A stretch of 63,006 nt of DNA, counting the filler, from Nemertoderma westbladi (taxonomy: Eukaryota; Animalia; Xenacoelomorpha), in assembly GCA_032718475.1 (NCBI GenBank). It is 4 parts of 4 records of this genome, joined end to end, with 100 filler letters (N's around TTAATTAATTAA, not from the genome) between each part and the next. Parts side by side here need not be neighbours in the genome. Positions count along the whole stretch, not along the records: positions 1 to 21,408 come from JAUCBJ010006075.1; positions 21,509 to 36,230 come from JAUCBJ010006405.1; 2 more parts are not named here. One strand, written 5' to 3'. How positions within the stretch are numbered: the stretch's first letter is position 1; each line of letters opens with the position of its first letter. Shown piece by piece: positions 9,693 through 58,986 of this stretch. The notes below the pieces were generated by a model. It made no database searches, was not told the origin of the DNA, and saw only the letters and a program-made list of their open reading frames with translations. The position numbers were made by a program, and so were the translations under genes.

Positions 9693-10056
9693 TTACACAG
9701 ACGTCTCGCTCTGCAACCTCAAAACGAATGTATTCTTACTCGGGTCCGGGGTGGGCAACTCGCGAATCTGAAAGTAAGGTAACCTGGATACCGCGACTAC
9801 TAGTTGGACACCGGAAGCCGAATGTCTGAGGCTAAAGTTAAACCCGCACCGGATGCTGGACAGAACAGATGTACTGGATTCTATAGTCCACTCTTCCTTC
9901 GATTTCATATCGTTCGCGTTACTGATTACAGCTCCGGGACTCAGGTATTCTTCCAGGAAAGCTCGTGGAGTGAAGTCCTGCTCTATGCAGACTGACAGAT
10001 GTTTGAGTATCGCTTCGGTAGAATGGTGATGGTGCTGTCTGGTTGCCCGTAGATAC
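9693..10056 (-). CDS. Vangl: Vang-like/strabismus, exon 5 (last)
   Basis: Acceptor TTACAG|G; encodes YLRATRQ...FTPRAFLEEYL...FVLRLQSETSV*, the Vangl C-terminal PDZ-binding motif. Confidence 0.95.
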
Positions 10057-10145
10057 CTGTAATTGAACAAAATAGTTATTGGCCGGAAATTCATATTTGA
10101 AAAAATTATGGGATTAGTAGTTCGGGTCAATACAGAGTTCGACCT

Positions 10146-13115: not shown

Positions 13116-13187
13116 CCAATATGAATGTCTAGAAATGGTTTGCCAGCCGCCACTCGCCACTCAAACCAGAGCGTCGTCTCCAACCAC

Positions 13188-13716
13188 TACTAGGATCGGC
13201 ATGCCGCATTGCAGCTGCATTTTTAAGAATGCTGTGCCGGCTTCAGCTCTCGGGGCAAATACCGCACCCTGGTTTGCCATTCCACAGGGTGGGTGTCGCA
13301 ATGGAGTCAGATATGAGGCCCATCACCCATATCTACTCTGGCGCACATGACCCACCATTGGCTGTTGCAGCTCATCTGTTGGGTCATGCCCTGTACCCCT
13401 GCTGCCAGGTGCAGGTCGCAGTGAAGTGCTCTCAGAGTGGACATGAGAACACTCTACTCCTGACCAGCCATTCGTAGATCACCATCTGCCTGGTCAGGCC
13501 ATATACCCCTGCAGCCAAGTATATGGGTCCTTAATCCAGGACCAAGGGCGTCCTTATCCCAGAACGAAGGGGGTCCTAGTTACAGGACCAGATTTGCCCT
13601 AGTAATAGGGTCTATGCAGCTACAGGTGGCACCTCCTTTATGCTGCATGGAGGTGACAAGTTTTCTTGATCAATGACCTAGAATACCTGACCTGAAAAGG
13701 TCAGGTATTCTAGGTC
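13188..13716 (-). mobile_element. ~530-bp non-autonomous retroelement sharing its 3' end with an RTE-like LINE
   Basis: 3' ~60 bp nearly identical to 29952-30012; TAG-type tail; 12-bp direct repeat GTCTCCAACCAC at 13176-13187 and 13714-13725. Confidence 0.75.
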
Positions 13717-14225: not shown

Positions 14226-14386
14226 CTCTGCAAGGTGTGTGCGAGACTTGGGAACACAGCCTTGGCCGCCTCATCAGGCCCCATCATCGCCAACCCTGGG
14301 AGCCTATCCGCTTCGCTCTGAATTCTCTTTATGTGCGTGAAAGCTTCCTCCGCAGCTACCATCAGCCTCGCACGTCGTTTCCGCAC
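14226..14386 (-). CDS. Vangl: Vangl exon 4
   Basis: TTAG|VRKRRARLMVAAEEAFTHIKRIQ...MGPDEAAKAVFPSLAHTLQ(R)|GTGCGT; phases 0 and 2 match both neighbouring exons. Not shown in this frame in the ORF track. Confidence 0.95.
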
Positions 14387-14393
14387 CTAATAA

Positions 14394-14590
14394 TGTAAGC
14401 AATAAGATAATAAAGTAAGCAATTTGAAAATAAAGTATGTTATAAGATAATAAAGTAAGCAATGTGATAATACGGTATGTTATAAGATAATAAAGTAAGC
14501 AATAAGATAATAAAGTAAGCAATAAGATAATAAAGTAAGCTATAAGATGATAAATTAAGCAATAAAATAATAAAGTAAGCAATAAAGTAA
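14394..14590. repeat. 20-bp minisatellite (GTAAGCAATAAGATAATAAA)n
   Basis: About 10 degenerate tandem copies next to the exon 4 acceptor. Confidence 0.85.
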
Positions 14591-14916
14591 TCAATTATTA
14601 CTATTATAATTCTAAACAAAATTTAATATTAAATAGTTGTTTAAATTTGATTTTTTTATGTTTAATTTATAGTTTGATTGAACAGTTATTGTAGTTGATT
14701 AACTTATTGATAAATTTTTTCAAATTACTGTACATTGATCAACAATAATGATCCTCTAATATCTGTCCTGAAATTGAGACACAGCAACAAAGCAATTTTT
14801 TCAATATCTTACAGAAAATGCCGAGTTCTATATAATTTTAATGCAGATTGCATAAAGCCATGTTTGTAATCAAGTAATTGGGGAACCGTACTATACGTTT
14901 GTAATAATAACATTTA

Positions 14917-15435
14917 CGTGGGGACTTCATGCAGCACTTAAGACAAGATGAGCTTTTGCGTAGCAGCAAAATTAGTTGACCTAGTCATTCGCCCCCTAGC
15001 GGCTGACAAAGGAACTATCTGTGTGTAGAATTTTTAAACTTTATATAGACTACATCTGTACCAAGTTTGATTTCATTTCAACAATAATTAATCAACAATA
15101 ATTGATCAAACATATCCAACAATGACGAGAGACAACAACAATGAAGTTATACCTATTCTAGAACTCTACAATTCTAGTGTGGGAAGAGCTCGTAGACTAG
15201 GAGAGGCGGTATAATTACTGGAACGTCTGTCATCGTCATTTAAAATGTTTGAAAGCAAATAAGTCGGCCAATTTTTGATTAAATGGAACCAAACTTGGTA
15301 AATATGTTGTCTATAAAAAGTTTAGAAATTGTAATCACATACTTATAGTTACCTTCTCAGCCGCTGGGGAGCGACCAGATCCACTAATTTCACTGCAAAG
15401 ACTCAACTTGACTTGGTGCGGCGAAGTCCCCCACG
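14917..15435. mobile_element. Inverted pair of a dispersed repeat (MITE-like)
   Basis: CGTGGGGACTTC...CGCCCCCTAGCGGCTGA...TACCAAGTTTGATTTCATTT on the left is mirrored at 15280-15435; another copy at ~18277-18450. Confidence 0.6.
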
Positions 15436-15871
15436 AAAGTATAGATTGAAGTAGGCCTTACAGTATTGTTGTAATGATCAATTGACTGAAATATTTTATT
15501 AAATTTCATGGGCCTACAGCATTACAAATGTGTGATGAATATATAGAGATAGATTAGATAAATTAATAGCCTTTCCAGCTTTCGTTATATTATTAATAAG
15601 TTTAGAATCCAGTACTCAATTAAACAGATAAACCGTCACTATAATAGAGATAGTTACCGTTTCAATCCAACATGACATAGGATAATGGATTACCCCTAAA
15701 ACATTGCGGCCTTTAGTGAAGGAGAGGATGAACACCCCATATGTTCGAAGGGTTTCTCAGACGGTAGAAATAAAGATTGTTGGTAAGAATTGTTTCTGCT
15801 TGGGTCTATAAAACACTTAGTATTTTCAGCTATCGCTTTATTCGCTACAACATTATCTATAATCAACGCAC

Positions 15872-16108
15872 CTTTCTCTCGATCTCGGATTCCTCATAGA
15901 ATCGATCGTTCCTCCCGCTATCTCGTTGTCTCGCCGCCGCGGCTAACAAGGCCTGAGACGCCCCTAGCGGGTCCTCATTCCCACCGTCTACGTTGTAGAA
16001 CTTAAACCCGGCGAAGTGTTTGAGACTTCGACTTGGTATGTTTATAAGGTTCGGGTTGTACAACGGAAAGTCTCGATAGTAGAATTGTAGAATTTGTTCT
16101 GCCGTTTC
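15872..16108 (-). CDS. Vangl: Vangl exon 3
   Basis: TAACAG|ETAEQILQFYYRDFPLYNP...GFKFYNVDG...AAAARQRDSGRNDRFYEESEIERK|GTGCGT; 237 bp, phase 0/0. Confidence 0.93.
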
Positions 16109-16361
16109 CTGTTAAGGGCAGTTCCAATTAAAGAAGCCAAGTTTATAAATATCTATAAGTTACATTTGAGAAGAAACTTTTTACAGGAGTAGTGCAGATT
16201 AATAGCATTACGCAGGTAGTGAAAAGTAATTTTCAGCGGGAATTCAACATAAGTGACCTCTTAGCCATTCGTTTTTTTATTTTTTTTTTATATATTTATT
16301 TATTTTTTTTTATTTGTCGCAGTGCAATTTTATTTTCTTGGCGCCCTCTAATGGAACTGTC

Positions 16362-17174
16362 CTGAATAGGATAAGCCGGCAAATTGTAGAAGCGAGTTTC
16401 GCCGTCCGTCCCTCGTATAACTTTAACCGTAAATAGAACTCGTCTTGATCTTATCTCAAAGAATAACAAAGCCAAATAATGTATAAAAATTAGGCCATCC
16501 ACTAGAGATGAAGCGAATTCAACAATATTCTGGTACGAATGAATTTTTAGTTTTAGAATTCGAATGCAAAACACCAGCCAATAGGTAGTGAGAATTAATA
16601 TTATTAATCCAATTACGATAAGTTTATGAATAGCAGCTCGCGGTAATGTAGATAGTCTCCTTCGAAGGAATAAACCCCAGGTTCCGAGGCCCAAAACGAT
16701 AAATTTAAAACCGAAATTAATAAATATAGAGTCGCATCCAGTACCACATGTCTCATATTCCCATAGAAACAGAGGAAGTATTATAAATATAATAGGAGTT
16801 AGGTAAGCTGATACACAAACGCAGGTTGATATACTGAGTAGTAAACAATTCCAACCGTTCCTGCCTCCCCATTGGTTAAGGGATGATGAGTCATCCTCGA
16901 TATCTTTCATTAACATGTGTTGAGCTTCCCCATTGGTTGAGGTTCTATCAGCGCTTGTTGCCGTGACTACGGTCTGTGTTTCGGTCCAGTCCTCGGGGAG
17001 TCTCGAGTGCAGACCCCGTATTGGAGACTCCGCCCTATTGAATGTGACCTCTAGCGGCGATATTCGAGGGGAGACAATTCGCCTGGCTGAATCGCGTTTG
17101 CTGATTGGCTGTTTGTCGTCGCTTTTTTTAGATGGTGTGTTGTTAGTGGAAGATGAGTAATCTGGGAATTTCTC
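16362..17174 (-). CDS. Vangl: Vangl exon 2 (Ser/Thr motif and four transmembrane helices)
   Basis: TTTTAG|EKFP...EDWTETQTVVTATS...FASSLVDGLIFIHYLALLFFEIR...VIRGTDGETRFYNLPAYPIQ; 813 bp, ending at a GA donor. Confidence 0.92.
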
Positions 17175-18613
17175 CTAAAACAACATAAAATATAAAGCTA
17201 ACATATTTTATTCTCAAATAATATTCGCAGTCGTGAGCCCATATACACGGGGCGAGCCACGAAGTAAGGTGCGGAGCCTTAGCTTAGGCCTAAGTTAGTT
17301 ATGGTTAACAACGTGAATTCCGCATAAACATTACCAATAATCGCAACAATACTGACAGAGGGGGGGGGGGGGGGGGGGGGTGAAGCGAATCACATCCCGA
17401 TGAATTAACATTGTTAATTATGAATTACCAATGGAAAGGAATAGGTTACAGCGGCATGCTATTCTAACGAATACAATAAACTCGAGTCAATATGACATGT
17501 CACAGTTTATATTGTAATTTTTGTTTTTGTTTTTTCAGTCGTTTTCCCTGGATGAGTAGAATGTATTTTTTTCATCGTCTCCGTTACATCTGCAATAATA
17601 GAGCAATTTACTATTTAATTTACTATCTGGTGTATTTGCATATAGCGATGATATTGTAATGTATGTACTTGAAATAATTTAAAACATATATCCGTGTAAT
17701 TAACTTATTAAATTATTTATTTGTATATATATATATATATTAGGTAGTATTAATCATACTTAAATACGCGTTTGAGCCTTTGTTTAAATATTATTTTCTT
17801 GGACGATTGTTGCGACTCTTAGCCCTCTGCCCAATTTCACACAAATTAATTAAAGCTTATATTTGTCCCGGTATTTTGCCTGACGGTTAATGTACCGTCA
17901 TTTTAATATTATCCGTCCATTTGTCTATTGTTTTGTTTGTTTTTGTTACATTGTTTTCCGTTGTTACGTCTCTTCTTGTCAGTTGCTTGTGGCTATTTAC
18001 TGGTAATTTTATCGTCAATAAACTTAATAATAATAATATGGCTTGTCTCATACCTATTATACTGTATATTATGGTGTCGGTGTCATTGCGCACGTTCAAA
18101 CATTGAGGAAGTTGGGGTTGGACAATGTCCAACACTTAGTTCTTTCGGTGGTTTTTTTTGAAGATCGGCCTTAGTCAGGAATCGAATTCGTGTATCCTAC
18201 AATACGAACCATAGGATACACTAGTAGGATACAAGTGTATCCTACAACAGAAAGGAACCATACAGGATACAAATAAGTGGGGACTTCACGCAAGATGACC
18301 TTTTGCATTTAGCTACAATTAGTGGTCCTAGTCATTCGCCCCCTAGCGGTAGACAGATAAATTATAGAAGTCTGTCTGTGTATAGAATTTCCCAAGTTTT
18401 TATAAACTAGGCCCTACATCTTTACCAACTTTGTTTCAATTTCATCCAAGATTAACTGACTTATTCACGTTCCAACATTTTCGACAACGACCTAATGGTT
18501 CCACTACAGCTCACCTGAACTTACCTATGGCTCGCCCCATGCTAGTATACTGTAGTTATTTTCCATGTAATAATATAATTTTTAATTTAATAATTTCCTA
18601 CATACTAACTAAC

Positions 18614-18931
18614 CTTACTAGTAGACAATCCAACATTGTTAGAGACCATATCAGCAACACCAAGATGGGCAACACCAGACGGCAGCTGAATGACCCCTCC
18701 CGGCAGCTGATAGACCTTGCTAGGCAGCCTACCATTGGGTGATTTTAACAGCTTCCCGGTTCCCGGCTCATAATCTTGGCAACTCCCTCTGGCGGGCAGT
18801 CTTGGGACCGAGGTGTGTAAATCGTTAATAATGTTGTTGGTGATTATAGTTCCATTGTTCTGTCCGTAACATCTAATATTTCCAACATTTGGCCCATTTT
18901 TACGGACACTGGACTCGTGAGATTTATCCAT
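18614..18931 (-). CDS. Vangl: Probable Vangl exon 1
   Basis: ATG-initiated 106 codons ending at AAG|GTTAGT, phase 0, in frame with exon 2 (total 630 aa). The sequence is not recognisably conserved. Confidence 0.6.
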
Positions 18932-19584
18932 TTATACAGTAGAACAAATTCGCCCTGAATATGTCTACCAAAACTACAATCTGTGAAATTATCACATTCC
19001 ATACAAAAACTTATACTTTAAGTACTTATTCCCAAGGTAATATATCCTCTCAATGTTAAATTACCAATTTAGGGAATGGAGCAGGTTATACTGTACAATA
19101 ATATATTGCTTAAAAAGACAATTTGTGGAATAATATAATTTAGACAACAGGCCTACCCGGCTGGGCAAAAAATTGTATCTTTGAAAAAGCTGTAATGTGG
19201 TGCGTTTAAACTTCGTAATGAGAAAAACTAATTTAAATAATTCATTATGGTGACGGGATCAGAAAAGTCTGTCTGTTGGTTGGGAATATATCGAGAGTTA
19301 AAAGCTTAATGAATAACTTAGCTTAATAAAATAATTGGAATTAATTATTCATGACTTTGGCGTAAAGAATAAGTATAAATACAAGAATAGCTGTGATTGG
19401 TTTCACTAACATCGGCCTACCTCAATAAAAACAACATGAAGTAATGGTAATATTTCGAGAAATTATCTTTAAAAGTGAAAAAATCGATTTTGAAATACTG
19501 TACTCTATATAGAATTGGTTGAATTTATTGTATCAATTCAATACGTAACCTATTTAGCATCAAAAAACAGTCTTATAGTCTTAA

Positions 19585-20561
19585 GGGGATCAGTATACAG
19601 GCATTCAAATTTTTTTTCTAATTTGTCCGTCAGTATGTCTGTCCGTCAATAAAAAGCAAACTATCTGTATTCCCTACAGTATATGGGTTTTCGTGGTCGG
19701 TGACTTCATTTCTGATGTCAATATTCAAATTTGGCCTCGTCGTTTCTGACTGTATGACTGTCAGTATGTCCGTCAAAATATAACCGACAGACTGACTGCC
19801 AAACAGACAATTTGGAAGTCATCAAATGTTAAAACTGACACTCGAAATGAATTCTGCGACCAGGAAAACGACTCTAGCTAAACTCTGAACTAGATTGTAT
19901 GCCTTTTTCTTATATTTGACGGACAGATTGTCGGATAGTCAGAAAGACCGACAGACAGACATACAGACAAACAAGAATTGATTAAAAGTGAAAAAACTGA
20001 CCTCAGAAATTAAATCAGCGACCAGGAAAACCCCATAGCAAAAATCTTAGCATGGTTTTGTGCTTTCTTTTTGCTAGGTATATATTGACAGACATTATTT
20101 CATAATTAATGAACAGACAGTTTTTGCGCGGGAAGGTTCAAATTTTAAATGGATTTTTCTCAAAATGTGTTTTTCAAATTTTTTCGGTACATGTTTCTCA
20201 GCTGCCATTTGAGTTATAGACTTGAAAATTTCTCACTAGGATGATTTTTTTACCGTAGAATAACGTAAAACAATTAGTTTGTTTTATATTGTGACACAAT
20301 TTGTGTAGACATAAGCACCGAATTGTAATTTTAATGTTTGTGACACTAATTATTTGGCTATTTTTTTTTTAATTAGGTCAATTTTACAAAAAAATAAGCT
20401 AAATATATTAAAAAAACTTGAAATTCAAAAAAAATTGGTTCACCAGAAAGCCCATTAAATTCCAGTTGGAATGCAAGAATAGTTGGCCTATAAGTAATCT
20501 GATGCGTTCTAACCGAGGCTTAATCGTAGTTTGTATGGTAAAAATGCCTGTATTACTCCCC
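19585..20561. mobile_element. Non-autonomous DNA transposon with TTAA target duplication (Kolobok-like)
   Basis: TTAA|GGGGATCAGTATACAGGCATT ... AATGCCTGTATTACTCCCC|TTAA, with internal inverted subrepeats. Confidence 0.7.
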
Positions 20562-21029
20562 TTAATATTGTTATTTTATAATTAATTAAAAATAATGTAT
20601 TAAAAATCTAAACTCAATTTGAAATTAATATATAAAAAACAACTAAATTAAATGAATTAAACAAATCGCTCGGCGAAATATTATTTGCAGTTATGAGCAA
20701 ATTTTGTCTGCGAAATCCATATATAGGCCTATGGATTGAATTAAAGCGATACAGGACGTTGATAATGGAAACTAATACTGCATCGATGCCGGTATACACA
20801 GTTAATGTGTCAGCTATCAGTTTATTGACATTCACAAGTGTTTTAGATATCACGCATAAGCTGCTAGTTAGCCAGCTATCGACGTAACAAATTATTATGC
20901 AAATAGTACTTTCATATTAGCCTGAAAATTAAATTGTAAAACTGAAATTTGTGCTGAAATTTCCATTGAAAATTGCCTGGCCTGATATGATTGACTAACA
21001 TTTTCAGGAAATCACTGGTTGTTTTGGCG

Positions 21030-21408
21030 AAATTACTTGAACTCAGAATTGATGTTTGCTACACAAGACTACTAAGGGCAGCCCAAAACATCAGCTGGAG
21101 ACAGCACATGACAAACGCCGAGCTTTATGGTACAATACCACCTGTATCAACCACCCTCCGTGAACGCAGATTAAGATTCAGTGGGCACTGCTGGCGAAGT
21201 AAAGACGAGGTCATACCAGATCTACCTTTCTGGCAACCAACACAAGGAAAGCGTAGTCGTGGACGACCTGCCATAACATAAATAGATCAACTTGAAAAGG
21301 ATACTGAAATTGGGAGAAACGAAATTGCAACAACTATGGAGAATCGGGAAGCCTGGAAGGATCTTCTTTACAATGCCCGAGCTCGCTCGACCTAGTAGTA
21401 GTAGTAGG
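21030..21408 (+). mobile_element. 3' remnant of an RTE-like LINE
   Basis: YTRLLRAAQNISWRQHMTNAELYG...RLRFSGHCWR...WQP...RGRP followed by a (TAG)n tail. Confidence 0.8.
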
Positions 21409-21508
21409 NNNNNNNNNNNNNNNNNNNNNNNNNNNNNNNNNNNNNNNNNNNNTTAATTAATTAANNNNNNNNNNNNNNNNNNNNNNNNNNNNNNNNNNNN
21501 NNNNNNNN
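21409..21508. other. Assembly gap/linker (N-TTAATTAATTAA-N)
   Basis: 100-bp spacer with stops in all six frames. Confidence 0.97.
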
Positions 21509-23835
21509 TAGACGCACCCAGTGGTGCACGGGCCCTTAGACGCACCCAGTGGTGCACGGGGCCTTAGACGCACCCAGTGGTGCATGGGGCCTTAGACGCA
21601 CCCAGTGGTGCGTCACGGGGCCTTAGACGCACCCAGTGGTGCGTCACGGGGCCTTAGACGCACCTAGTGGTGCACGGGGCCTTAGACGCACCCAGTGGTG
21701 CGTCACGGGGCCTTAGACGCACCTAGTGGTGCACGGGGCCTTAGACGCACCCAGTGGTGCGTCACGGGGCCTTAGACCCACCAGGTGGTGCGTCACGGGG
21801 CCTTAGACGCACCCAGTGGTGCACGGGGCCTTAGACGCACCCAGTGGTGCACGGGGCCTTAGACGCACCCAGTGGTGCACGGGCCCTTAGACGCACCCAG
21901 TGGTGCACGGGGCCTTAGACGCACCCAGTGGTGCACGGTGCCTTAGACGCACCCAGTGGTGCACGGGGCCTTAGACGCACCCAGTGGTGCTTCACGGGGC
22001 CTTAGACGCACCCAGTGGTGCACGGGGCCGTAGACGCACCCAGTGGTGCACGGTGCCTTAGACGCACCCAGTGGTGCACGGGGCCTTAGACGCACCCAGT
22101 GGTGCACGGGGCCTTAGACGCACCCAGTGGTGCACGGGGCCTTAGACGCACCCAGTGGTGCACGGGGCCGTAGACGCACCCAGTGGTGCACGGTGCCTTA
22201 GACGCACCCAGTGGTGCACGGGGCCTTAGACGCACCCAGTGGTGCGTCACGGGGCCTTAGACGCACCCAGTGGTGCACGGGGCCGTAGACGCACCCAGTG
22301 GTGCATGGTGCCTTAGACGCACCCAGTGGTGCACGGGGCCTTAGACGCACCCAGTGGTGCACGGGGGCCTTAGACGCACCCAGTGGTGCACGGGGCCTTA
22401 GACGCACCCAGTGGTGCACGGGGCCTTAGACGCACCCAGTGGTGCACGGGGCCTTAGACGCACGCAGTGGTGCGTCACGGGGCCTTAGACGCACGCAGTG
22501 GTGCGTCACGGGGCCTTAGACGCACCAAGTGGTGCATGGGGCCTTAGACGCACCCAGTGGTGCGTCACGGGGCCTTAGACGCACCCAGTGGTGCGTCACG
22601 GGGCCTTAGACGCACCTAGTGGTGCACGGGGCCTTAGACGCACCCAGTGGTGCGTCACGGGGCCTTAGACGCACCTAGTGGTGCACGGGGCCTTAGACGC
22701 ACCCAGTGGTGCGTCACGGGGCGGGGCCTTAGACCCACCAGGTGGTGCGTCACGGGGCCTTAGACGCACCCAGTGGTGCACGGGGCCTTAGACGAACCCA
22801 GTGGTGCACGGGGCCTTAGACGCACCCAGTGGTGCACGGGCCCTTAGACGCACCCAGTGGTGCACGGGGCCTTAGACGCACCCAGTGGTGCACGGTGCCT
22901 TAGACGCACCCAGTGGTGCACGGGGCCTTAGACGCACCCAGTGGTGCGTCACGGGGCCTTAGACGCACCCAGTGGTGCACGGTGCCGTAGACGCACCCAG
23001 TGGTGCACGGTGCCTTAGACGCACCCAGTGGTGCACGGGGCCTTATACGCACCCAGTGGTGCACGGGGCCTTAGACGCACCCAGTGGTGCACGGGGCCTT
23101 AGACGCACCCAGTGGTGCACGGGGCCTTAGACGCACCCAGTGGTGCGTCACGGGGCCTTAGACGCACCTAGTGGTGCACGGGGCCTTAGACGCACCCAGT
23201 GGTGCGTCACGGGGCCTTAGACGCACCCAGTGGTGCACGGGGCCGTAGACGCACCCAGTGGTGCACGGTGCCTTAGACGCACCCAGTGGTGCACGGGGCC
23301 TTAGACGCACCCAGTGGTGCGTCACGGGGCCTTAGACGCACCCAGTGGTGCACGGGGCCGTAGACGCACCCAGTGGTGCACGGTGCCTTAGACGCACCCA
23401 GTGGTGCACGGGGCCTTAGACGCACCCAGTGGTGCACGGTGCCTTAGACGCACCCAGTGGTGCACGGGGCCTTAGACGCACCCAGTGGTGCACGGGGCCT
23501 TAGACGCACCCAGTGGTGCACGGGGCCTTAGACGCACCCGGTGGTGCGTCACGGGGCCTTAGACGCACCCAGTGGTGCACGGGGCCTTAGACGCACCCAG
23601 TGGTGCGTCACGGGGCCTTAGACGCACCCAGTGGTGCACGGGGCCGTAGACGCACCCAGTGGTGCACGGTGCCTTAGACGCACCCAGTGGTGCACGGGGC
23701 CTTTGACGCACCCAGTGGTGCGTCACGGGGCCTTAGACGCACCCAGTGGTGCGCGGGGCCTTAGACGCACCCAGTGGTGCACGGGGCCTTAGACGCACCC
23801 AGTGGTGCACCCAGTGGTGCGTCACGGGGCCTTAG
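21509..23835. repeat. GC-rich 28/31-bp satellite GGGGCCTTAGACGCACCCAGTGGTGC(GTC)AC
   Basis: About 80 tandem copies read directly. Confidence 0.98.
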
Positions 23836-24435
23836 GGAGAAGTCACCAATTGTACAATGTACTGTCCGCCGTTGGTGTTAGAAATAAAACTGAAACATTT
23901 CTGTAGAAAACAGTAATTAATAAAAGTAAGAGTTATTATATTTATATAAATTAATTATTGTTTGCATCCATCAATGGTTCACTTCATACCTAATCAATTA
24001 ATATTTTAAAGTTAAACTCTTTAATTAAAACTATTTCTACAAGAGTTATTTCAAGAAATTTTAATTAAAGAAGCGGCGAAAACTCAAATATTTTTAGAAG
24101 GCGACTGACATACTGTACGTGTACACTACTGTACAGGTAGGGAAGATGCCAAAACATTTTGTACTCAAAGTTAAAATAAAACATTTTATTTCCCGCTAAT
24201 TAAATAACTAAAATAGCAGTTTTATTCTTTACAAATATTGCATTATTATTAGCTTTATCGTTATTGCAAAGCAAAACCAACCAAATTGCATAGAAACAAG
24301 TATAAATATGATAACTAATAATAATAGAAAGGAATTCTAGAACAGACTTCCTTGCTAATAATAGTTAATAAAACAAGTTAACAATGTATTAGCATGGCGT
24401 CTTGGTGTTATATGGTTAGTATTACTAGAGTATTA

Positions 24436-25329
24436 CTAGTTATATTGTTGTGGGTTGATTACGATACAATGTTTGGCTAGTTGTTTAATCGCGATAAACT
24501 GCCGCTTAAATTCCAAACCGCAACCTTTGGATAACCGGAAGTCGACCAACGACATCCCCCCGCCTACCGGAAGTACCGCGACCCGGAACACCAAGTCGAC
24601 CTTCCGTTTATCCAACAAACTAACCGCGTAAATACCGCGGTCTATCGACTTAAACTGGTAACCTAAACGCGAGAAAATCACGAGGAATTCAGCGTGGATA
24701 TCCGATTCGGTGTAGTTCGTAAAGAATCGAGTCATTCTCTTGACGAGTTTAGCCAGCGGGTTGGAGCCTTGGGTCAGTTGGGTAGTCAAGGATTGGGTGC
24801 TTAGCAACATGTCCCCGCCGTCAGTGGGCTGCGAGAAGAACAGTTCGATCTGGGGGTCGCGTCTCGGGGGTTTAAATCCGTCGACTGGAGGAGGAGGCGG
24901 CATCGGTTGGCTGTAGACCGCCGACGGTACAGTCTGGTAGTTCTCTTTGTCCGGAGAAGGGCCAACTCTAAACCATCTATCGGCACGGATAGCTAACACT
25001 GTGGCTCGGGACTCGACTACCGGATTTAGTATCTTACAGAGGAGTCCGAGACACTCTGTAGATAGTTTACACCACGGGGAGTTAGTGTAGCCCTTAGCCA
25101 ACCAGGCGGCGTACTGTACCGCGGTAGTCGAGGGTGTGTCCCACGGTAGTTCTCCCGCTAGCATCGTGACCAAAACGATCCCGCAGCTCCAGATGTCGGC
25201 GGGTTCCGCGAGGTATTCCGCTCTCGCGAATACCTCCGGCGCCGAGTAAGGGGGAGTCCCGCAACAACGACTCAACTTACGAGTTTTATCTTTTATACGG
25301 AAGGCGGTACTCAGTCCGAAATCCGAGAT
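24436..25329 (-). CDS. chk1: Serine/threonine kinase Chk1, exon 2
   Basis: CTAAG|ISDFGLST...CGTPPYSAPE...DIWSCG; SQ sites (YSQP, FSQP); C-terminal RMTRFF and DFRLSKGCGLEFKR motifs. Confidence 0.95.
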   Translation of the reverse strand: MSDFGLSTAFRIKDKTRKLSRCCGTPPYSAPEVFARAEYLAEPADIWSCGIVLVTMLAGELPWDTPSTTAVQYAAWLAKGYTNSPWCKLSTECLGLLCKILNPVVESRATVLAIRADRWFRVGPSPDKENYQTVPSAVYSQPMPPPPPVDGFKPPRRDPQIELFFSQPTDGGDMLLSTQSLTTQLTQGSNPLAKLVKRMTRFFTNYTESDIHAEFLVIFSRLGYQFKSIDRGIYAVSLLDKRKVDLVFRVAVLPVGGGMSLVDFRLSKGCGLEFKRQFIAIKQLAKHCIVINPQQYN

Positions 25330-25813
25330 CTTAGAGAGAGAGAGGGGTTTCCTTCGCGTATTAATTTCTCTGTCGCTTTTTATCACTTTTATTACTCGGA
25401 GGGGAAAAGGAGCCCAGCCAGCATGTAAAATAATGTAGTTTATTATTTTGGTTAGAAAACACCGCCACTGTAACCTGCTCCTCTACGTTACCGGTAATGT
25501 TTTCAATTAAATAAAATTAATCTTTCAAACTCACTAAAACAAATTATTTTGTGTTTACGGCCATTTTGCGCCATTGACTCAACTCTAAAGGAAAAATAGA
25601 GTCAAATAATTGGTGATTACGAATGAAAATGTAACCTGTGATGTGCATTTTAACTATATTCATAATGACCTGATGATCCTTGTTTATCTGTTTATTGTAG
25701 GCCTATCTTACCAACGCCAAAATCGTGCAAAAGCAAAAACGTGGAAAAATCTGGTAAGAAAATAGTGGCCTAGTGGCCTAATGCTGTAAAAAAACACGTG
25801 AAAGAAAACTCCC

Positions 25814-26257
25814 CTTCAATAAATCGTCGTCCCCAATTAATAGGTTCTCCGGCTTTATATCCCTGTGGGTTACTCCCTTACTGTGGAGGTATTCTACTCC
25901 GGTTATCAGCTGAGTAAAGAATCTGTGGGCCTCGAATCTGGGCATACCTATATCGGGTTCTATTCTATCGAACAGCTCCCCACCACTGGCGTACTCAAGG
26001 AATATATACTCGGTGGGGAAGTCCGTTCTGTGGCCGAAGAATTTCACGATGTTACAATGTTCCAACATTCGGTGTAACACAATCTCTTTTCTGACGTTTT
26101 CCTGTACTTGTTGGTTTAGATTCAAGTTGATTATCTTTACGGCTATCGCTTCCTGTGTTTCCTGGTTCACCGCCAGTTTAACTTCACCGTAAGCTCCCTC
26201 ACCCAGGGTCTGGATAAGGTCCCATCCTTCTACGAAATGCCCAGGATTGGCTGCCAT
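25814..26257 (-). CDS. chk1: Serine/threonine kinase Chk1, exon 1
   Basis: [29 protein letters not shown]...[14 protein letters not shown]...[18 protein letters not shown]; ends at AAG|GGGAGT. Confidence 0.95.
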
Positions 26258-26378
26258 TACCACTGTAGTAAATAGGTAAATACAGTACCTGCAACGCGGA
26301 AAGTTTTCACATTTTATATGACTGTGTATTACAGTATTAACTGATTAAAAAATGGTTAATAACTATGCTATGGTCAGA

Positions 26379-28688
26379 CAGTTAAGTAGGTTTCTTAAAT
26401 AGGAAGTTTTTTTTTCTTCCTATATAGGAAAAAGTGCTTCCTATATGACATTTTTGCCATATTTCTGAACATTTTCTTCGTTATCTTTTGAATTAAATTT
26501 TAGCGGCATATTTGAATTCCTGCTTATTGCAGGTTAATCATTACTACGTTTGTTGTGAAAACTATCTTTGCGTTCGCTTTCTATAGCCATTTTAAAAACG
26601 TTACTTTTTCCGAGAATTTTTTATATAGGAAATATTTTTTAGACGTCCTATTTAGGAGTTTAACTTATTTCTTATTTAAAATATTTTATGTATATATTTT
26701 TCTTAAATAAGAAAATATATATATTTTCCAGCAGTTCAATCCAGATACTGATAGGGCTGGGGCTGGGATACAGTTAGTTGCCCCGTCATCCTGTCTAGGC
26801 TATATGGTTTGCAGTTTCAGATAATACAGCAATATAAAACTACATCCCTCCAACACAGAGGGATATTTTTTTTAATATAATTAATAATTATTAATGCATA
26901 TTATTTTTATAATAATTAATGATTATTTATAACATATATATACCGGTATATAGTATATACCATATATATATGTCCCATATATCATATATATATATCGTAT
27001 ATATCCCATATAACATATATATATATTACAATAATATTTTTAATTGCATTTTTTTTAACTGCATTTTTAATTATTAGTAGATATACATTTTATAATTAAT
27101 TAATTATTTTAGCTATTTTATAAATTATTAATTCCATATGTTGGATTAAAGAATATAACTATTATCTGATTATTATTATTAATAATATTTTTGTAAAAAT
27201 TAACAGATTAATAATTATTCATGCAATATTATTTTTACAATAGGCCCCCTAAGCCTAATTAATAATTATTTTGCAATAATATCTTAAAATAATTAATAAT
27301 TATTGATGCAATATTATTTTTACAATAATTAATAATTATTTATGCAATAATATATTTTTTTAATAATTAATAATTAATTATGCAATACTATTTTTGCAAT
27401 AATTAGGCCTAATAATGCAATATTATTTTTAAAATAATATTTTTAAAATAATTAATAAATTAGGCCTATTAATGCAATATTATTTTTAAAATAATATTTT
27501 TAAAATAATTAATAAATTAGGCCTATTAATGCAATATTATTTTTAAAATAATATTTTTAAAATAATTAATAAATTAGGCCTATTAATGCAATATGATTTT
27601 TATAATAAATAATGATTATATATGGATCAAACAATAATTTTTGTGTAATAATTAACAGATTGATAATTATTCATGCAATATTATTTTTAAAAATACCAGT
27701 ATATAGGCTTAATTAATAATTACTTTCAGACTTTGCTGCTTTGCAATAATATTTTAAAATAATTATTAACTATTGATGCAATATTATTTTTACAATAATT
27801 AATAATTATTTATGCAATAATATTTTTTTTAATAATTAATAATTATTTATGCAATAATATTTTTACAATAATTAGGCCTAATAATTATTGATGGAAAAGT
27901 TTTTATTACAATAATATAGTATTAGAATATACTATATAGGGAAAGAGTACAGGAGTATAATATAGGGAAAGAATAATGGCAAAGTTAATTTCAGAATGCC
28001 TGTTGTTTTTCATCTACCGTAAGTCTAGCTACTGCAGTACTGTAATTGTGAGTGGAACAAAATTATCTGTCATAGGAACAAAAATTAGACAGACAGACTA
28101 ATTAAATTTCATAGGAACAAAATTCACTCAAATAGGAACGAAATTCGCAAAAAATAGGAACAAAGTTCTATGTGAATTGGAACACAATTCGCATTATCAC
28201 ATTTTAGGAACAAAGTTCGCGCTCCGAAGCTTACAGAAATTTATCGCACTCTACATTAATAACATCATCTTAAACTGAACTGGCAACTGGCAAGTCATAA
28301 TTTTTCTTAATTAAGAAAAATCAAGACATAAAATACTTTAAATAAGAAATAAGTTAAACTCCTAAATAGGACGTCTAAAAAATATTTCCTATATAAAAAA
28401 TTCTCGGAAAAAGTAACGTTTTTAAAATTGCTATAGAAAGCGAACGCACAGATAGTTTTTTTTCTAGTTTTCACAACAAACGTAGTATAGGCTAGATTAT
28501 CCTACAATAACCAGGAATTCAAATATGCCGCTAAAATTTATTTCAAAAGATAACGAAGAAAATGTTCAGAAAAATGGCAAAAATTTCCTATATACAGATA
28601 TAGGAAGCACTTTTTCCTATATAGTACTGTAGTACTGTAGTATATAGGAAGAAAAAAAACTTCCTATTTAAGAAACCTACCCTAACTG
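26379..28688. mobile_element. 2.3-kb non-autonomous TIR element with ~340-bp arms and an AT-rich repetitive core
   Basis: 26379-26715 is the reverse complement of ~28310-28688; CAGTTA..TAACTG termini; 5-bp direct repeat TCAGA on both sides. Confidence 0.85.
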
Positions 28689-29196
28689 TCAGAAGATATA
28701 AAACTGTATTATATCAGTATATTCAGATATTACAGTACCGGTACCGTATATTATAGGCCTAGCTGCCTAGTCCAGTTCCAGTAGTCTGTTAAAACTTGCT
28801 CATAAGCCAGTAAAAAAATCAATAGGCCTACTGCTGTACTGGAAATGGAACACATGGTACAGTACAGTGCCCGCCAGTCAGGCAGTAGGCCTGCAGTGGC
28901 TGAGTGGTACGTACTAAATGCTGAAACACCTCTGCTGCTCTGCACCTTGTTTAAGCAAAAATTCGAAATAAATATCACAAGCTGGCAAGCACGGTGCACG
29001 GGGGTTTACGGTCCTACTTTTTTACTTCTGACTTATATCATTTTATACCGGTATACTTCAAACTACAGTATGCAGTACTGCACACTGATACATATAACTA
29101 AAATACTGAAATACCGCCAAACTGCCAACAAGCAGACCAGTACCGGTTGATTTCACTATTTCTACAAAATTCAAATTTCCCGGGTTTTACTTTTCA

Positions 29197-48160: not shown

Positions 48161-48729
48161 GTTAATTTAGTACATAAAGTATAATCAATATTGTTGAAAG
48201 GTGTGTGGGGCGAGCCACGAAGTTGGCGGAGCCTTGGTGAATTGACACTGTTAAGGAGAATGTCAATAATGGCAAATAGTTGTTGACGTAACTATTTTGA
48301 CATTCAAATAAGGCAGAATTTATTTAAAGCTGTCGAATTGAAAATTTTGTAGGCATAAATATGTCCAAAATTGACATTATTTAGCGACTTTTGACCCCAA
48401 CAGTTCAACAGTCTCCCGCTAGATGGCTACATGTCTAAACTTTAAATGTCCTCCCATTTCTTTGCTTTTAATCAGTTTAAGCTGAAACTTGGCAGAATTG
48501 TACTCGACCATTAGCTGTGTCATTTAAACTTGGTTTCTGTGGTCTTAACCCTTCGTTTCTCAAATAGATGATTCCTTTGAGGGCAATTTTGACCTCAGGT
48601 AAATGAGAGGGTTGGGGTGGTTCAAAAAAACTTTTTGTCGAATTTAAACTGAGTTTGTACATCTGATGTCATCAAATGAGCCCAAACTTCGATAGATACC
48701 AAAATTTTGATTTGGGGATGACAGGGATA

Positions 48730-55420: not shown

Positions 55421-57064
55421 TAGCCACAAAGTATAGGTGAGCTTTTGTGTAGCGGTATAATCGATGGACGGTCTGTTTGCTCTGCAGTCGTCGATGGATA
55501 TGTTTGAATGCTAATAAGTCGAACCAAACTTTGTACACTAAGAAACGACTCGAGCTGCGCGAAGTCCCCCCAGCGTGATTTCTGTACTGGCGTTATAATT
55601 TTCTGTTGGCAGTTTCCTGCAAAACCAGCCTTGGATAGGGTCGGTCTATTTCGCACCAATCTCATTGGGTTAATGTCGTCATATATCTTCCACATACATT
55701 TGTTTAGCGCCAAGGCAACAAACTAACCCTGAGTTTTGTAGTTCCACTCGCGATGTGCTGAGTTGAACCTATGACGTCATTCGAAACATAAATTTCTGGT
55801 CCCAAGTGAAATCCGCCAACCCCACCTGCAATATTGTTAGCAGTGTATAAAATAGGTTCTCCTACTGTATAGTAGACGCATAGTTAAATACTCTATTTTG
55901 GAAACCGGCGAGGCTAATGCTGCCGTCCTAAGGCAAATCCATGTAGCTCGAATTTTGACGAAAATGAGATATTGGTATCATTTTAAAGCTTACGGCGAGC
56001 TCTATCTGGTGGTAGAACTTAATAGAGTGCATCTAAACTCTAAAGGGGTTAAAAAGGGTGTAGAAGGTAACTAACTATACATTATATGAATTTGTTAAGG
56101 CATGCCAAGGCAGAACCATGTAACCCTAATGTGTTAATGACACTCCATGTAACTACTATAAGCGTACACCATGTATCTCATGCGAGTTACATTGTATTGG
56201 CTTAGGAACAGCTGTTTAAATTTATATAATTTACATGGTGTAATATAAGTAAACTGGTTAGAATTTGTAAGGTAAATCCATGTAACTCGAAAATCAAAAT
56301 CAAAACATACATTTTTTAAATAGCTAGCTTAAGTTTGGAGATCTAAGACTTTCTAGGTATTTAAATAAACTATTTGACTAAACTTTAGTGTTGAAAATGT
56401 TCACACAAACATTCACATGTTTTCGTGCAGATCCGTTTATGGTTAGGAGGGCAGATTGAATGAATGGCTATACCAACATAAATATTTTAACTCCAACCAA
56501 AATATAATTATTTATCTTCCACTATTTTTAATTGCAAATTAAATTTAAGTTTTTTATCAGAGCAAATTAGGGATTCCAAGTAGAGATATCGTTTACCGTT
56601 TTTGTTAGAAAACAGTTAAAATTTGTGGTTTCTGCGTCATCTTATTATCAGATTATTTATAAATAACTTTACTAATTTCATTTCCAGTATCTCTAAACTT
56701 TATATGACCCTTATAATGACTTTATATATCACCCTTATCCATTTGTTTGTATTCGCGCGGTGCACTTTAAACTTCACAATTATAGAAATTTAATCTGATT
56801 ATAAACACAATGAATGAATGAATTACAGTGGACTTTGGGACCTGAACTACTGTAGGAGGAGACGATCTGGGTGATGGTTTTACGGATATATAGACTAAGT
56901 GCCGGTACTGTAGTACGTAATTAAAATAAACGAAAAGTGAAAACCTGGTATTATATTATTCACATTGGTGGCGTTTGCTTATATTGCAATTTTTACCAAT
57001 TGTAAAAATTCCAGAGGTAGTTTCCTTGCCCAGACCACCGGTGTAAACATACTTAAAGGATTAA

Positions 57065-58848
57065 AGGCGGGTAGCAGATCTGTGAGTGGTCAAAATTGAG
57101 TTTATTGCCAATTTTTTCGGCCCAAACATGAAATTATTTTGCAAAAAAATGAACAATATAAAACAAACAAACAGGCCTTCAACAGGGCAGCTCGGTAATG
57201 CTAACTACTGGAAAACTAAAACACTATACTTAAACTAACAGCACTACAGTACTATAACTACACCACTACTGCACCAACAGTCTGATAGTACCGGTACTGG
57301 ACGGGTCCAGTGGTTCAACATATAGCCCGGCGGCTACAGACTGTTGGTGCAGTAGTGGTGTAGTTATAGTAGTGTTGTTAGTTTAAGTAGTGTTTTAGTT
57401 TTTCAGTAGTTACAGTAGGCATTACCAAGCTGCCCTGTTGAAGGCCTGTTTGTTTGTTTTATATTGTTCATTTGTTTCAATCAGGCCCGTAGCCAGGATT
57501 TTTTAGTTGGGTAGGCGAGGGAATATCAGGGTAGGCTGGCGCAAAAATGTTAATTTGGATAAATTTTATAATATATTTAATTGTATACAGTAGGTATAAA
57601 GCAAAACGACAGTAGGGTCTACATGGAGTCCGCCATCAGTTCATCATTTGTATACAAAGACAACATAAACACAGATAGGGGGGGGGGGGGGGGGGGGGAA
57701 ATGAACGCAATAAAAATTCATCCCTCTCCAGGGGAAATTCGACGCAAATAACAGCTGATTATTCTCAAAAATGATACTGTATCCTGTTCTATTGACTTTA
57801 GTTTATTAACGTGCCACTGTAACCTGATCCTTTCCCTAAATTGAGAATTTAACATTGAGGCGGGATATTAATTCGCCAAGGCGGATTTTGCGTCCAGTCC
57901 CCCCCCCCCCCCCTGTCTCCATAAACAAGTCCAGTCTACTAGCGCATGAACTGTCTCCTTGAATGGCTTACTACCAATCTTACTACCTAAAATATTCACC
58001 GGCTTACCAAAAATATTCACCGGCAAGTGGGATTGAACTCGTTATGTAGGCCTGTGTTGCAGATAAACATCCCTTTTATTGGTAATACACAACACACTCC
58101 ACTGTATGTACCATTACAGGATGGTTGGGTGCAACCTTTGCCCTCTTACAACCATCGCCCGTGTCCAATCTTCATCCGCGTCCAACCTTCACCTGGGGGA
58201 ACCTTCGCCCACACAAGGCAATCCAATCTTCGCCCACGAGCAATCTTCGCCCAATAAGATTTGTGTTAGAAATCATTTTAGTTACCAATTGAGTGAAAGG
58301 ATCAGGTTACAGAGACGGCTTTTTCTAACCAAAACAATAAACGATGTTGTTACAAATTGAAGGAAAGCAGCAGGTTACAGAGACGGCTTTTTCTCACCAA
58401 AACAATCATTGTTTAGTGGGCGAAGATTGGACGCGGGCGAAGTTTGCTGCGCACCTAAAGAACGATTGTTCGATGACTGTAAGGGTGGAGTAGGCCCTAC
58501 TGGACTGTAGTAGTAGTAACCGTGTTTGCCTACGGAAAGTATTATTAAAATGAAAGTAACTTACAATCTGAGTGTAATATGTACCGGTGTTTGATTACTA
58601 CAAGGCTAATGTTTAAAGAAGGCGCGCATGGAACCAGAAAATGGATGTGTAAAAATGTAAAATTATACTAATGAAGAAAAATTTCTTACAAAAAATTGGA
58701 TGGGCGAGACCCACGTTTGGGTAGGCGGCGCCTACCTTCGCCTTATACTGGCTACGGGCCTGGTTTCAATACTGCAATAATTTCATGTTTGGGCCGAAAT
58801 ATTGGCAATAAACTCAATTTTGACCACCCACAGATCTGCTACCCGCCT
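57065..58848. mobile_element. Palindromic TTAA-flanked (Kolobok-like) MITE, interrupted by a hAT-like MITE
   Basis: TTAA|AGGCGGGTAGCAGATCTGTG ... CACAGATCTGCTACCCGCCT|TTAA; inner palindrome 57150-57473. Confidence 0.8.
57482..58762. mobile_element. hAT-like MITE
   Basis: TIR CAGGCCCGTAGCCAG/CTGGCTACGGGCCTG; 8-bp direct repeat GTTTCAAT (57474-57481, 58763-58770). Confidence 0.85.
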
Positions 58849-58986
58849 TTAATCCTTTCAATTGTAAAAATTGGTGATGAATACCTGTGAATAATTTGTT
58901 GTTGAATATAAATACACTGGCGGCTCCTACTAACAACCCTAACTGTAAGATACTGTAGGTTGTACAGTACATGACTAAAGAAATAC

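What the first reader, a model, noticed from the sequence alone, without database searches (positions are those of the whole stretch)
16109..25813. Candidate system: transposon-derived introns with non-GT donors in two essential genes
Seen: of five inferred introns, three are GT-AG, one is GA-AG (Vangl, CAG|GACAGT) and one is GG-AG (Chk1, AAG|GGGAGT). Both odd donors keep the rest of the U1 consensus (AG|GnnAGT). Only these two introns have inverted repeats that start at the donor and end a few bases before the acceptor AG. Established: introners are DNA transposons whose terminal repeat and target duplication supply the splice sites, and GA/GG donors are known from a few lineages such as some copepods and dinoflagellates. 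Inference: this animal has a spliceosome relaxed at +2, which lets TIR elements starting with GG/GA become introns, possibly aided by end-to-end pairing. The two genes are on different contigs, so this is a shared pattern and not a linked locus.
Basis: partly seen in the sequence, partly recalled or inferred. Interest (0 to 1): 0.88.

Follow-up and report, generated by a model that had tools for sequence, protein, structure and literature searches.

The report
GA/GG-start introns with transposon-like ends
Two core genes of an unidentified animal each carry an intron that starts with GA or GG instead of the near-universal GT yet is cleanly missing from transcript-like sequence, and only these two of six introns have complementary ends, likely because they are old transposon insertions removed by a splicing machine that tolerates such starts.

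Summary
Vangl has a 253-nt GA-AG intron (16361-16109, minus strand) and Chk1 a 484-nt GG-AG intron (25813-25330). A cDNA-like run joins both junctions, with no GT or GC register possible; DNA contigs confirm both donors; the joins are gap-free in 102 of 104 and 117 of 118 homologs. There are six introns, not five: four GT, one GA, one GG. Only the two odd ones have end-to-end inverted repeats (13/19 matches, p 0.001-0.004; GT introns p>0.7). Both look single-copy, so membership of an introner family is not met. Best reading (0.55): decayed TIR-transposon insertions spliced by a +2-tolerant spliceosome. The likeliest source is TTAA-targeting, GG-ended (Kolobok-type) elements: insertion at TTAAG or TTCAG puts the element's first G in the exon and gives AG|GG and an AG acceptor without a frame change. 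An intact element of this build upstream of Vangl offers the same AAG|GGGAGT donor as Chk1. GA/GG donors are known in a copepod and Oikopleura; I found no report tying them to such elements in an animal. The scan earlier noted lone GG/GA introns in other animals (unchecked). Lineage and genome-wide frequency are unresolved.

The parts
18614..18931 (-). Vangl coding exon 1
   Evidence: ATG-started frame; joined CDS is 630 aa without stops, ending ETSV
17175..18613 (-). Vangl intron 1, GT-AG, 1439 nt, no end-to-end repeat
16362..17174 (-). Vangl exon 2, ends ...YPIQ
   Evidence: Pfam Strabismus 22-251; X4 record 17
16109..16361 (-). Vangl intron 2, GA-AG, 253 nt, phase 0, single-copy
   Evidence: joined in X4 and confirmed in X2/X3 DNA; colinear with human VANGL1 271/278
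16344..16362 (-). 5' arm of the Vangl inverted repeat, starting at exon base -1 (longer ungapped form 16329-16371)
   Evidence: (I5)
16116..16134 (-). 3' arm of the Vangl inverted repeat, directly followed by TTAA (16115-16112) and the CAG acceptor
15872..16108 (-). Vangl exon 3
   Evidence: Pfam Strabismus 254-333; X4 record 17
14387..15871 (-). Vangl intron 3, GT-AG, 1485 nt, 7-nt direct repeat across the junction
14226..14386 (-). Vangl exon 4
   Evidence: Pfam Strabismus 333-386; X4 depth
10057..14225 (-). Vangl intron 4, GT-AG, 4169 nt, holds a large tandem repeat
   Evidence: junction inferred from homology, acceptor lies outside the stretch laid
9693..10056 (-). Vangl last coding exon
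19585..20561 (.). Intact TTAA-flanked, GGGG..CCCC-ended element (Kolobok-type build) upstream of Vangl; on minus it offers AAG|GGGAGT and TTAAG|
   Evidence: multi-copy body in DNA runs; not shown to be transcribed or spliced
29144..29164 (-). Chk1 5' untranslated exon (part seen)
   Evidence: loose 5' end of the X4 contig matches here exactly
26289..29143 (-).
25814..26288 (-). Chk1 exon with start codon at 26257, ends ...DDDLLK
   Evidence: Pfam Pkinase 3-136; X4 record 18
25330..25813 (-). Chk1 intron, GG-AG, 484 nt, phase 0; AAG acceptor after a (TC)n tract; a dispersed repeat lies at 25436-25580
   Evidence: joint in X4 at depth 2038, DNA confirmed in X1 and X2
25796..25814 (-). 5' arm of the Chk1 inverted repeat
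25341..25359 (-). 3' arm of the Chk1 inverted repeat, 11 nt from the acceptor
24436..25329 (-). Chk1 last coding exon, starts ISDFG; poly(A) site near 24220
57057..58856 (.). Second Kolobok-type element, TTAA[AGG..CCT]TTCA, with the same TTAA/TTCA flank pair as the Vangl intron

Best explanation
The two introns, which start with GA and GG and are absent from transcript-like contigs, are likely old, now single-copy insertions of small terminal-inverted-repeat DNA transposons that are likely removed by a major spliceosome tolerant of a purine at donor position +2. Shown: the junctions, the genomic donors, the end-to-end repeats, the kept AG|G..AGT donor context and AG acceptors, and a Vangl position not shared with vertebrates or an acoel. 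Inferred: the source was most likely a TTAA-targeting element with GG ends (Kolobok-type; about 0.35 of the 0.55), else another TIR element with an 8-9-bp duplication (about 0.2). In the TTAA route the element lands in exonic TTAAG or near-cognate TTCAG/TGAAG; its first G becomes exon base -1, its next bases give the GG or GA donor, and the second target copy plus the host's G gives the acceptor, so the mRNA is unchanged. Only ends that also read AGT at +4 to +6 would be spliced well enough to survive. Later changes would be a 2-nt insertion before the Vangl acceptor and a (TC)n expansion before the Chk1 acceptor.
For: Precise joins in X4 and unchanged donors in DNA runs. Joins gap-free in 102 of 104 and 117 of 118 spanning homologs, and better than the nearest GT rival in 103 of 104 and 118 of 118. 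Donors match CAG|GTAAGT at 7/9 and 6/9, like the GT introns at 5-7/9. Inverted repeats in 2 of 2 odd and 0 of 4 GT introns. In Vangl the 3' arm is followed at once by TTAA (site frequency 0.9%) and itself reads GGCAGT, so the end was probably never GT. Both left flanks are TTCA or its reverse complement TGAA; 0 of 4 GT introns have TTAA, TTCA or TGAA there (noticed after the fact). The Chk1 acceptor is TAAG. The window holds intact elements of the required build, one offering the same AAG|GGGAGT 9-mer as Chk1 and one with a TTAA/TTCA flank pair; TTAA duplication with RR..YY ends defines Kolobok (PMC9587614). The vertebrate intron lies 7 nt upstream (28 of 30 broken homologs end in L-R read-through) and acoel contig ORFs read through the site. 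At the human rate of 46 GA/GG donors in 222,263 (quoted in PMC5714493), 2 of 6 has a chance near 6e-7 (my arithmetic).
Against: Neither intron shows a family: depth is flat over the Vangl intron and over both ends of the Chk1 intron, and blastn finds no copy of either end in the window. Neither has a clean duplication: TTCA/TTAA plus 3 extra nt in Vangl, TGAA/CTAA after a microsatellite in Chk1; an 8-bp reading matches at only 5 of 8 in Vangl. The Chk1 repeat is marginal without anchoring (p 0.058) and needs a 3-nt gap in the TTAA register. One GT intron (Vangl 1) also has a left flank one change from TTAA. Likeness between the Chk1 intron and the intact element is confined to about 7 terminal bases. 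No DNA transposase was found in 156 ORFs scanned. The sample is 2 introns, one cDNA-like run, contigs only.
Confidence: 0.55

Rival explanations
1. The spliceosome tolerates GA/GG donors, but these introns did not come from transposons: they arose by sliding or decay of older introns or by repair events, and the complementary ends come from a local inverted duplication or chance.
For: No family and no clean target duplication. The Vangl intron lies only 7 nt from the vertebrate intron position and its tail after the arm is 7 nt long. The Vangl repeat runs 10 nt into the exon. In Eurytemora GA/GG donors are common yet a survey lists 0 introner families for it (PMC12130899 supplement).
Against: Two independent anchored repeats at p about 0.001-0.004 each, in exactly the two odd introns; the exact TTAA after the Vangl arm; intact elements with matching ends nearby. 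Chance nearness of some intron to one of several old positions is not rare.
Confidence: 0.25
2. The segments are transposon relics cut out by a structure-guided route: SOS splicing (AKAP17A, CAAP1, RTCB) triggered by pairing of the ends, alone or as a hybrid with a spliceosomal acceptor.
For: Both pre-mRNAs fold with the two ends paired (z -2.65 and -2.18). SOS splicing is triggered by paired inverted ends, rarely uses GU-AG, and has a hybrid form with an SOS 5' site and a canonical 3' site (PMC12779559).
Against: SOS splicing is described as imprecise, leaving indels; here one exact Chk1 joint was listed at depth 2038 (contigs drop rare variants) and both joins restore conserved residues. The arms are short and about 70% matched. 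Donors keep AG|G..AGT; acceptors keep AG, with TTAAT at -23 and -35 as possible branch sites.
Confidence: 0.12
3. These are two isolated exceptions handled by an ordinary spliceosome, as with rare GA/GG donors in human genes, with no lineage-wide change.
For: Such donors exist at low rate in human; only two genes were examined and the window was picked for this feature.
Against: 2 of 6 against a rate near 0.02%; both are required for full-length proteins and no intron-retaining contig covers the unique intron parts in X4.
Confidence: 0.05
4. The odd donors are artefacts: assembly errors at +2, nearby GT donors, or reverse-transcriptase template switching across a hairpin between short direct repeats.
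For: The junctions have 5-nt and 3-nt direct repeats and a hairpin, the setting for template switching; in-frame GT alternatives exist at +5 in both genes; run X4 is not on record as RNA.
Against: DNA contigs of two studies for Chk1 (one may be the window's source) and of one further sample for Vangl read GG and GA. The GT alternatives do not fit the X4 joins and break colinearity. Both introns carry in-frame stops, so a working mRNA must lack them.
Confidence: 0.03

Closest known systems
GA/GG-donor introns of the copepod Eurytemora affinis (PMC5714493, whole text read)
   Same: Constitutive GA and GG donors with AG at -2/-1 and normal AG acceptors, at lineage-specific positions.
   Different: There genes have 19-47 short exons and +3 is nearly always A; here genes are intron-poor, +3 is C or G, and the odd introns have end-to-end repeats. 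That paper names no transposon source. This organism has no match above 45% for Vangl exon 2 among well-covered hits or 44% for Chk1 exon 2.
GA-AG introns of Oikopleura dioica (PMC7072748, passages)
   Same: GA donor with conserved upstream AG, supported by RNA-seq.
   Different: Downstream A conserved there; 'transpos' and 'GG-AG' do not occur in that paper's main text.
MITE-derived non-canonical introns of Fritillaria borealis (as reviewed in PMC11282704, passages; PMC13326754, passages; the 2019 primary paper not seen)
   Same: Animal introns with TIRs and target duplications at species-specific sites, removed by an adapted spliceosome.
   Different: Mostly AG-AC and AG-AT and most introns are non-canonical; here the first G, the U1-type context and the AG acceptor are kept and 4 of 6 introns are GT-AG. 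The Vangl junction can be written AG-AC, the Chk1 junction cannot.
Introners (bioRxiv 2022.06.06.494994, passages; PMC12130899, passages, section 6 and supplement searches), including dinoflagellate families with up to 40% GA donors and Amoebophrya IR/DR introns (PMC7789003, passages)
   Same: One splice site from the element and one from the duplicated target; frame-neutral insertion; GA donors occur.
   Different: Introners are defined as multi-copy families; these two look single-copy and decayed. In the survey's table Kolobok terminal motifs appear in 4 rows, all Symbiodinium, none finally classed as Kolobok.
Kolobok DNA transposons (PMC9587614, passages)
   Same: TTAA duplication with 5'-RR..YY-3' ends, met by two non-coding elements in the window and partly by the Vangl intron.
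   Different: No transposase seen here; the passages read do not describe intron formation.
SOS splicing (PMC12779559: abstract, passages, Discussion, part 2 of 4 of Main)
   Same: Removal from mRNA of a segment bounded by paired inverted ends at non-GU-AG sites.
   Different: SOS is imprecise and acts on intact ITRs; here the joins are exact and the spliceosomal signals are kept.

Membership tests
Introner elements | Removed exactly from the transcript | tested here: met
   X4 joins and homolog colinearity
Introner elements | Multi-copy family of similar introns in the genome | tested here: not met
   Flat depth at 80% identity over the Vangl intron and both ends of the Chk1 intron; no copy in the window. 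Likeness limited to a 20-30-nt end would be missed: the bin holding the intact element's left end is flat too.
Introner elements | Terminal inverted repeats (common, not universal) | tested here: met
   13/19 anchored matches, p 0.001-0.004; Chk1 marginal when unanchored
Introner elements | Target-site duplication supplying a splice site | tested here: inconclusive
   Exact repeats 5 nt (Vangl) and 3 nt (Chk1); 4-bp and 8-bp readings both imperfect
Introner elements | Lineage-specific position | tested here: met
   For Vangl only, against vertebrate and acoel-cluster sequences; no exon-level homologs were available for Chk1
Introner elements | Empty site in a close relative or another individual | tested here: inconclusive
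   DNA runs X1, X2 (Chk1) and X2, X3 (Vangl) all carry the introns; no close relative found
Kolobok | TTAA on both sides and RR..YY ends | tested here: inconclusive
   Met by 19585-20561; one side TTCA at 57057-58856 and in the Vangl intron; degenerate in Chk1
Kolobok | Homology to Kolobok transposase or Repbase consensus | not testable with these tools
   No genome or repeat library; Pfam found no DNA transposase in 156 window ORFs
Eurytemora-type GA/GG donors | Obligate AG before the donor | tested here: met
   2 of 2
Eurytemora-type GA/GG donors | A at +3 | tested here: not met
   C in Vangl, G in Chk1
Eurytemora-type GA/GG donors | About 10% of introns genome-wide | not testable with these tools
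   No genome held; 2 of 6 in the window
SOS splicing substrates | Heterogeneous, indel-leaving junctions | tested here: inconclusive
   One exact joint per intron in contigs, but contigs drop rare variants
SOS splicing substrates | Dependence on AKAP17A, CAAP1, RTCB | not testable with these tools
   Needs knock-down
U12-type (minor) introns | RTATCCTTT-type donor (consensus recalled) | tested here: not met
   Donors read GACAGTTCC and GGGAGTTTT

The most novel reading that the evidence does not exclude
TTAA-targeting, purine-ended (Kolobok-type) transposons are a route to GG/GA-donor introns in animals: landing in TTAAG-like exon sequence, they hand their first G to the exon and take the AG acceptor from the duplicated target, so a large share of this animal's introns would be such elements, spliced by a spliceosome that no longer needs U at +2. 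The same route would explain the obligate upstream AG and unexplained origin of GA/GG donors in the copepod.
Probability: 0.3. Interest if true: 0.82.

Novelty: new variant of a known kind. Interest (0 to 1): 0.64.

Why it matters
The GT at intron starts is among the most fixed rules in animal genes. Where GA/GG donors are common (Eurytemora, Oikopleura) their origin is unexplained in the papers I read, and transposon-made non-canonical introns in animals are documented mainly in Fritillaria. This window gives transcript-backed GA and GG donors in an animal with no close relative in the databases searched, links them to end-to-end repeats, and yields a concrete, countable prediction (TTAA-like flanks and paired ends in GA/GG introns) that can be tested in this genome and in the copepod. 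If common here, gene models made with GT/GC-only tools would be truncated for many core genes.

Tried and rejected
No whole genome is held, so no donor census or snRNA check; Rfam found 0 families in the window. No run is on record as RNA (no RNA holder listed); X4 was recognised as cDNA-like only by laying it. X8 laid nothing and X5 covered only repeats in the pieces shown. GT donors at +5 in both genes: rejected. A spliced-leader reading of the Chk1 5' end: rejected, the 20 nt map to 29164-29145. The high-copy 45-nt motif in the Chk1 intron as a TTAA transposon end: rejected, its nine window contexts show an internal motif. Euglena-type and U12-type introns: rejected by motif (Euglena features, U12 consensus recalled). 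An 8-9-bp duplication with GG ends (Merlin-like, recalled, no call) is kept as a sub-variant; it matches 5 of 8 in Vangl. Lineage: a fast Vangl tree put the protein beside an acoel cluster at support 80; a careful tree of 29 rows left it unplaced; a quick Chk1 tree of 41 rows put it outside protostomes, but AU tests rejected none of pancrustacean, tunicate or cnidarian placement (p 0.38, 0.45, 0.26). So it is unresolved. The Vangl search among longer proteins found nothing; the M16 peptidase search gave one 29% hit; the metagenome scan gave 78 loci of distant kinases (best segments 26-54%), not used. The first Vangl tree did not finish. Pfam was run on 156 ORFs; the 103 shortest of the 253 listed were not scanned. 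Literature searches (listings only unless named) showed no report of GA/GG donors tied to TTAA or Kolobok elements in an animal; a nemertodermatid genome paper has no 'splic' or 'canonical' in its main text (PMC10565955, passages). Subscription papers are not searched, 2 of 14 supplements of PMC12130899 were not searched, and bioRxiv supplements are closed; these could hold such a case.


Full report
What is there. The window is four contigs joined by N spacers. Vangl lies on the minus strand of the first and Chk1 on the minus strand of the second. Joined by coordinates they give stop-free proteins of 630 and 445 residues. Four are GT-AG. Vangl intron 2 (16361-16109) reads CAG|GACAGT...TTAACAG| and the Chk1 coding intron (25813-25330) reads AAG|GGGAGT...CTCTAAG|. 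A third gene, an M16 peptidase at 38185-39651, has no intron in its open frame.

The odd introns are real and are removed. Five of eight listed runs hold the Chk1 region and none is on record as RNA. Laid on the window, X4 behaves as cDNA: a poly-T end at 24220, a 5' end that looks like a template-switch adaptor (recalled), zero depth over 25629-25810, and a single joint skipping 484 nt with ends CT..CC on the plus strand at depth 2038. For Vangl one 1533-nt X4 contig runs 15867-16106 and then 16360-17173 with consecutive record positions 547 and 548, so 253 nt are skipped. Short repeats let the cuts slide over six and four registers, none GT or GC. DNA contigs have no difference over the donors: X1 and X2 for Chk1 (X1 may be the window's source), X2 and X3, one sample, for Vangl. 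The joins are gap-free in 102 of 104 spanning Vangl homologs (150 examined) and 117 of 118 Chk1 homologs (120 examined), and outscore the nearest in-frame GT alternative in 103 and 118 of them. Human VANGL1 numbering runs straight across the junction.

The inverted repeats are above chance. With the 5' arm fixed at exon base -1 and the 3' arm free within 20 nt of the acceptor, both odd introns match 13 of 19 bases (p 0.001-0.004 against two nulls), the four GT introns 7-8 of 19 (p 0.71-0.98). Without anchoring, Vangl stays clear (p 0.0012; duplex p 0.0005) and Chk1 is marginal (0.058; 0.0225). Both pre-mRNAs fold with the ends paired. Mismatches are 6 G-U, 3 A-C and 3 other, which does not show selection for RNA pairing, and the helix would cover the donor and the pyrimidine tract.

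They are not members of a visible family. At 80% identity DNA depth is flat over the Vangl intron and over both ends of the Chk1 intron; only an internal stretch at 25436-25580 is a dispersed repeat, and its 45-nt core is an internal motif, not an element end. This test would miss likeness confined to a short end. So 'is an introner' fails on the family criterion, while 'works like an introner' stands.

Position. Of 195 Vangl-like proteins examined, 156 reach the junction region; 126 continue and 30 break, 28 of them reading L-R where intact ones read L-S. That is the signature of an intron in the serine codon, 7 nt upstream of the GA intron; named cases are vertebrates. Contig ORFs in the acoel cluster read through. 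Vertebrate sequences also break five codons downstream of Vangl intron 3, so at least one GT intron is displaced too. Chk1 could not be tested this way.

How it most likely arose (inferred). Kolobok elements duplicate TTAA and end 5'-RR..YY-3' (PMC9587614). The window holds TTAA[GGGG..CCCC]TTAA at 19585-20561, with a multi-copy body, and TTAA[AGG..CCT]TTCA at 57057-58856. If a GG-ended element lands in exonic TTAAG, the exon ends TTAA plus the element's first G, the donor is its next two bases, and the acceptor is the second TTAA plus the host's G: the mRNA is unchanged and AG before the donor is obligate. The first element, read on the minus strand, offers exactly AAG|GGGAGT and TTAAG|, the Chk1 donor 9-mer. 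In Vangl the 3' arm is followed at once by TTAA, the left flank is TTCA (the glutamine is invariant in 102 homologs), and both arms read AGT at +4 to +6. In Chk1 the left flank is TGAA and the acceptor is TAAG. Against this: Vangl needs a later 2-nt insertion, Chk1 a (TC)n expansion and a looser register; one GT intron also has a flank one change from TTAA; the pattern was noticed after the fact; no transposase was found in 156 ORFs. An 8-bp duplication fits Vangl at 5 of 8.

How it is most likely removed (inferred). Both donors keep AG|G and AGT, scoring 7/9 and 6/9 against the U1 consensus like the GT introns; both end in AG, Chk1 after 15 of 17 pyrimidines, with TTAAT at -23 and -35. That points to the major spliceosome with +2 relaxed. 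At the human rate quoted in PMC5714493 (46 of 222,263), two in six is about 6e-7, so tolerance is probably general, but two genes cannot give a frequency. SOS splicing, triggered by paired ends, is a live rival, above all its hybrid form with a canonical acceptor (PMC12779559); it is described as imprecise, which the exact joins do not show, though contigs hide rare forms. I took that lead from an earlier AI note and read the paper myself.

Comparison and novelty. GA/GG donors at 10-12% with obligate AG are known in Eurytemora, origin unexplained, and GA-AG in Oikopleura. Transposon-derived non-canonical introns are known in Fritillaria, Amoebophrya and other dinoflagellates, with GA donors up to 40% in some introner families. 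A 2025 survey lists 0 introner families for Eurytemora and Kolobok-like ends in four Symbiodinium rows only. Searches showed no animal case linking GA/GG donors to TTAA elements; the library lacks most subscription papers. The organism has no close relative in the protein sets searched and trees do not place it; a weak tie to acoels is only a lead. The scan has noted lone GG or GA introns in other animals, unchecked here, and nothing else in this genome.

Verdict. Observation confirmed; interpretation partly supported. A new variant of a known kind, interest 0.64: solid on two spliced non-GT introns with paired ends, suggestive on transposon origin, untested genome-wide.

Noticed in passing
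window 14387-15871 and 26289-29143: Two GT-AG introns have 7-nt exact direct repeats across the junction (8 of 9 for the Chk1 UTR intron), which look like target duplications that supplied both splice sites.
   Followed up: partly
window 38185-39651 (-): Intronless M16 peptidase gene whose only hit at E<=1e-30 is 29% identical; with the intron-poor Chk1 it hints at heavy intron loss before new gains.
   Followed up: partly
window 16360: The A at +2 of the GA donor faces a C in the predicted helix, a mismatch type favoured by A-to-I editing (recalled); editing would make the donor GG-like.
   Followed up: no
window 25438-25482, also 17437, 19070, 39906-39950, 54335-54374, 56591-56634, 57790-57831, 58298-58406: A 45-nt motif dispersed through the window and of extreme depth in DNA runs (bin depth about 161,000 against 8-9 for single copy), also present in the cDNA-like run; its parent repeat is unknown.
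   Followed up: partly
window 48871-49578 within 48626-49723: TTAA[CCCT..AGGG]TTAA piggyBac-like ends nested in a longer near-perfect inverted repeat.
   Followed up: no
window 41357-48087: About 6.7-kb palindromic arrangement of short unique arms around an AT-rich satellite present in both orientations.
   Followed up: no
window 26558-28459: 163-nt inverted repeat at 94% inside the Chk1 5' UTR intron.
   Followed up: no
window about 10100-13200 and 21510-23830: Large GC-rich tandem arrays, one inside Vangl intron 4 that reads as long stop-free repetitive frames.
   Followed up: no
window 4901-5620 (-) and 61073-62806 (+): GIY-YIG nuclease fragment and a reverse-transcriptase ORF, likely retroelement remains.
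   Followed up: no
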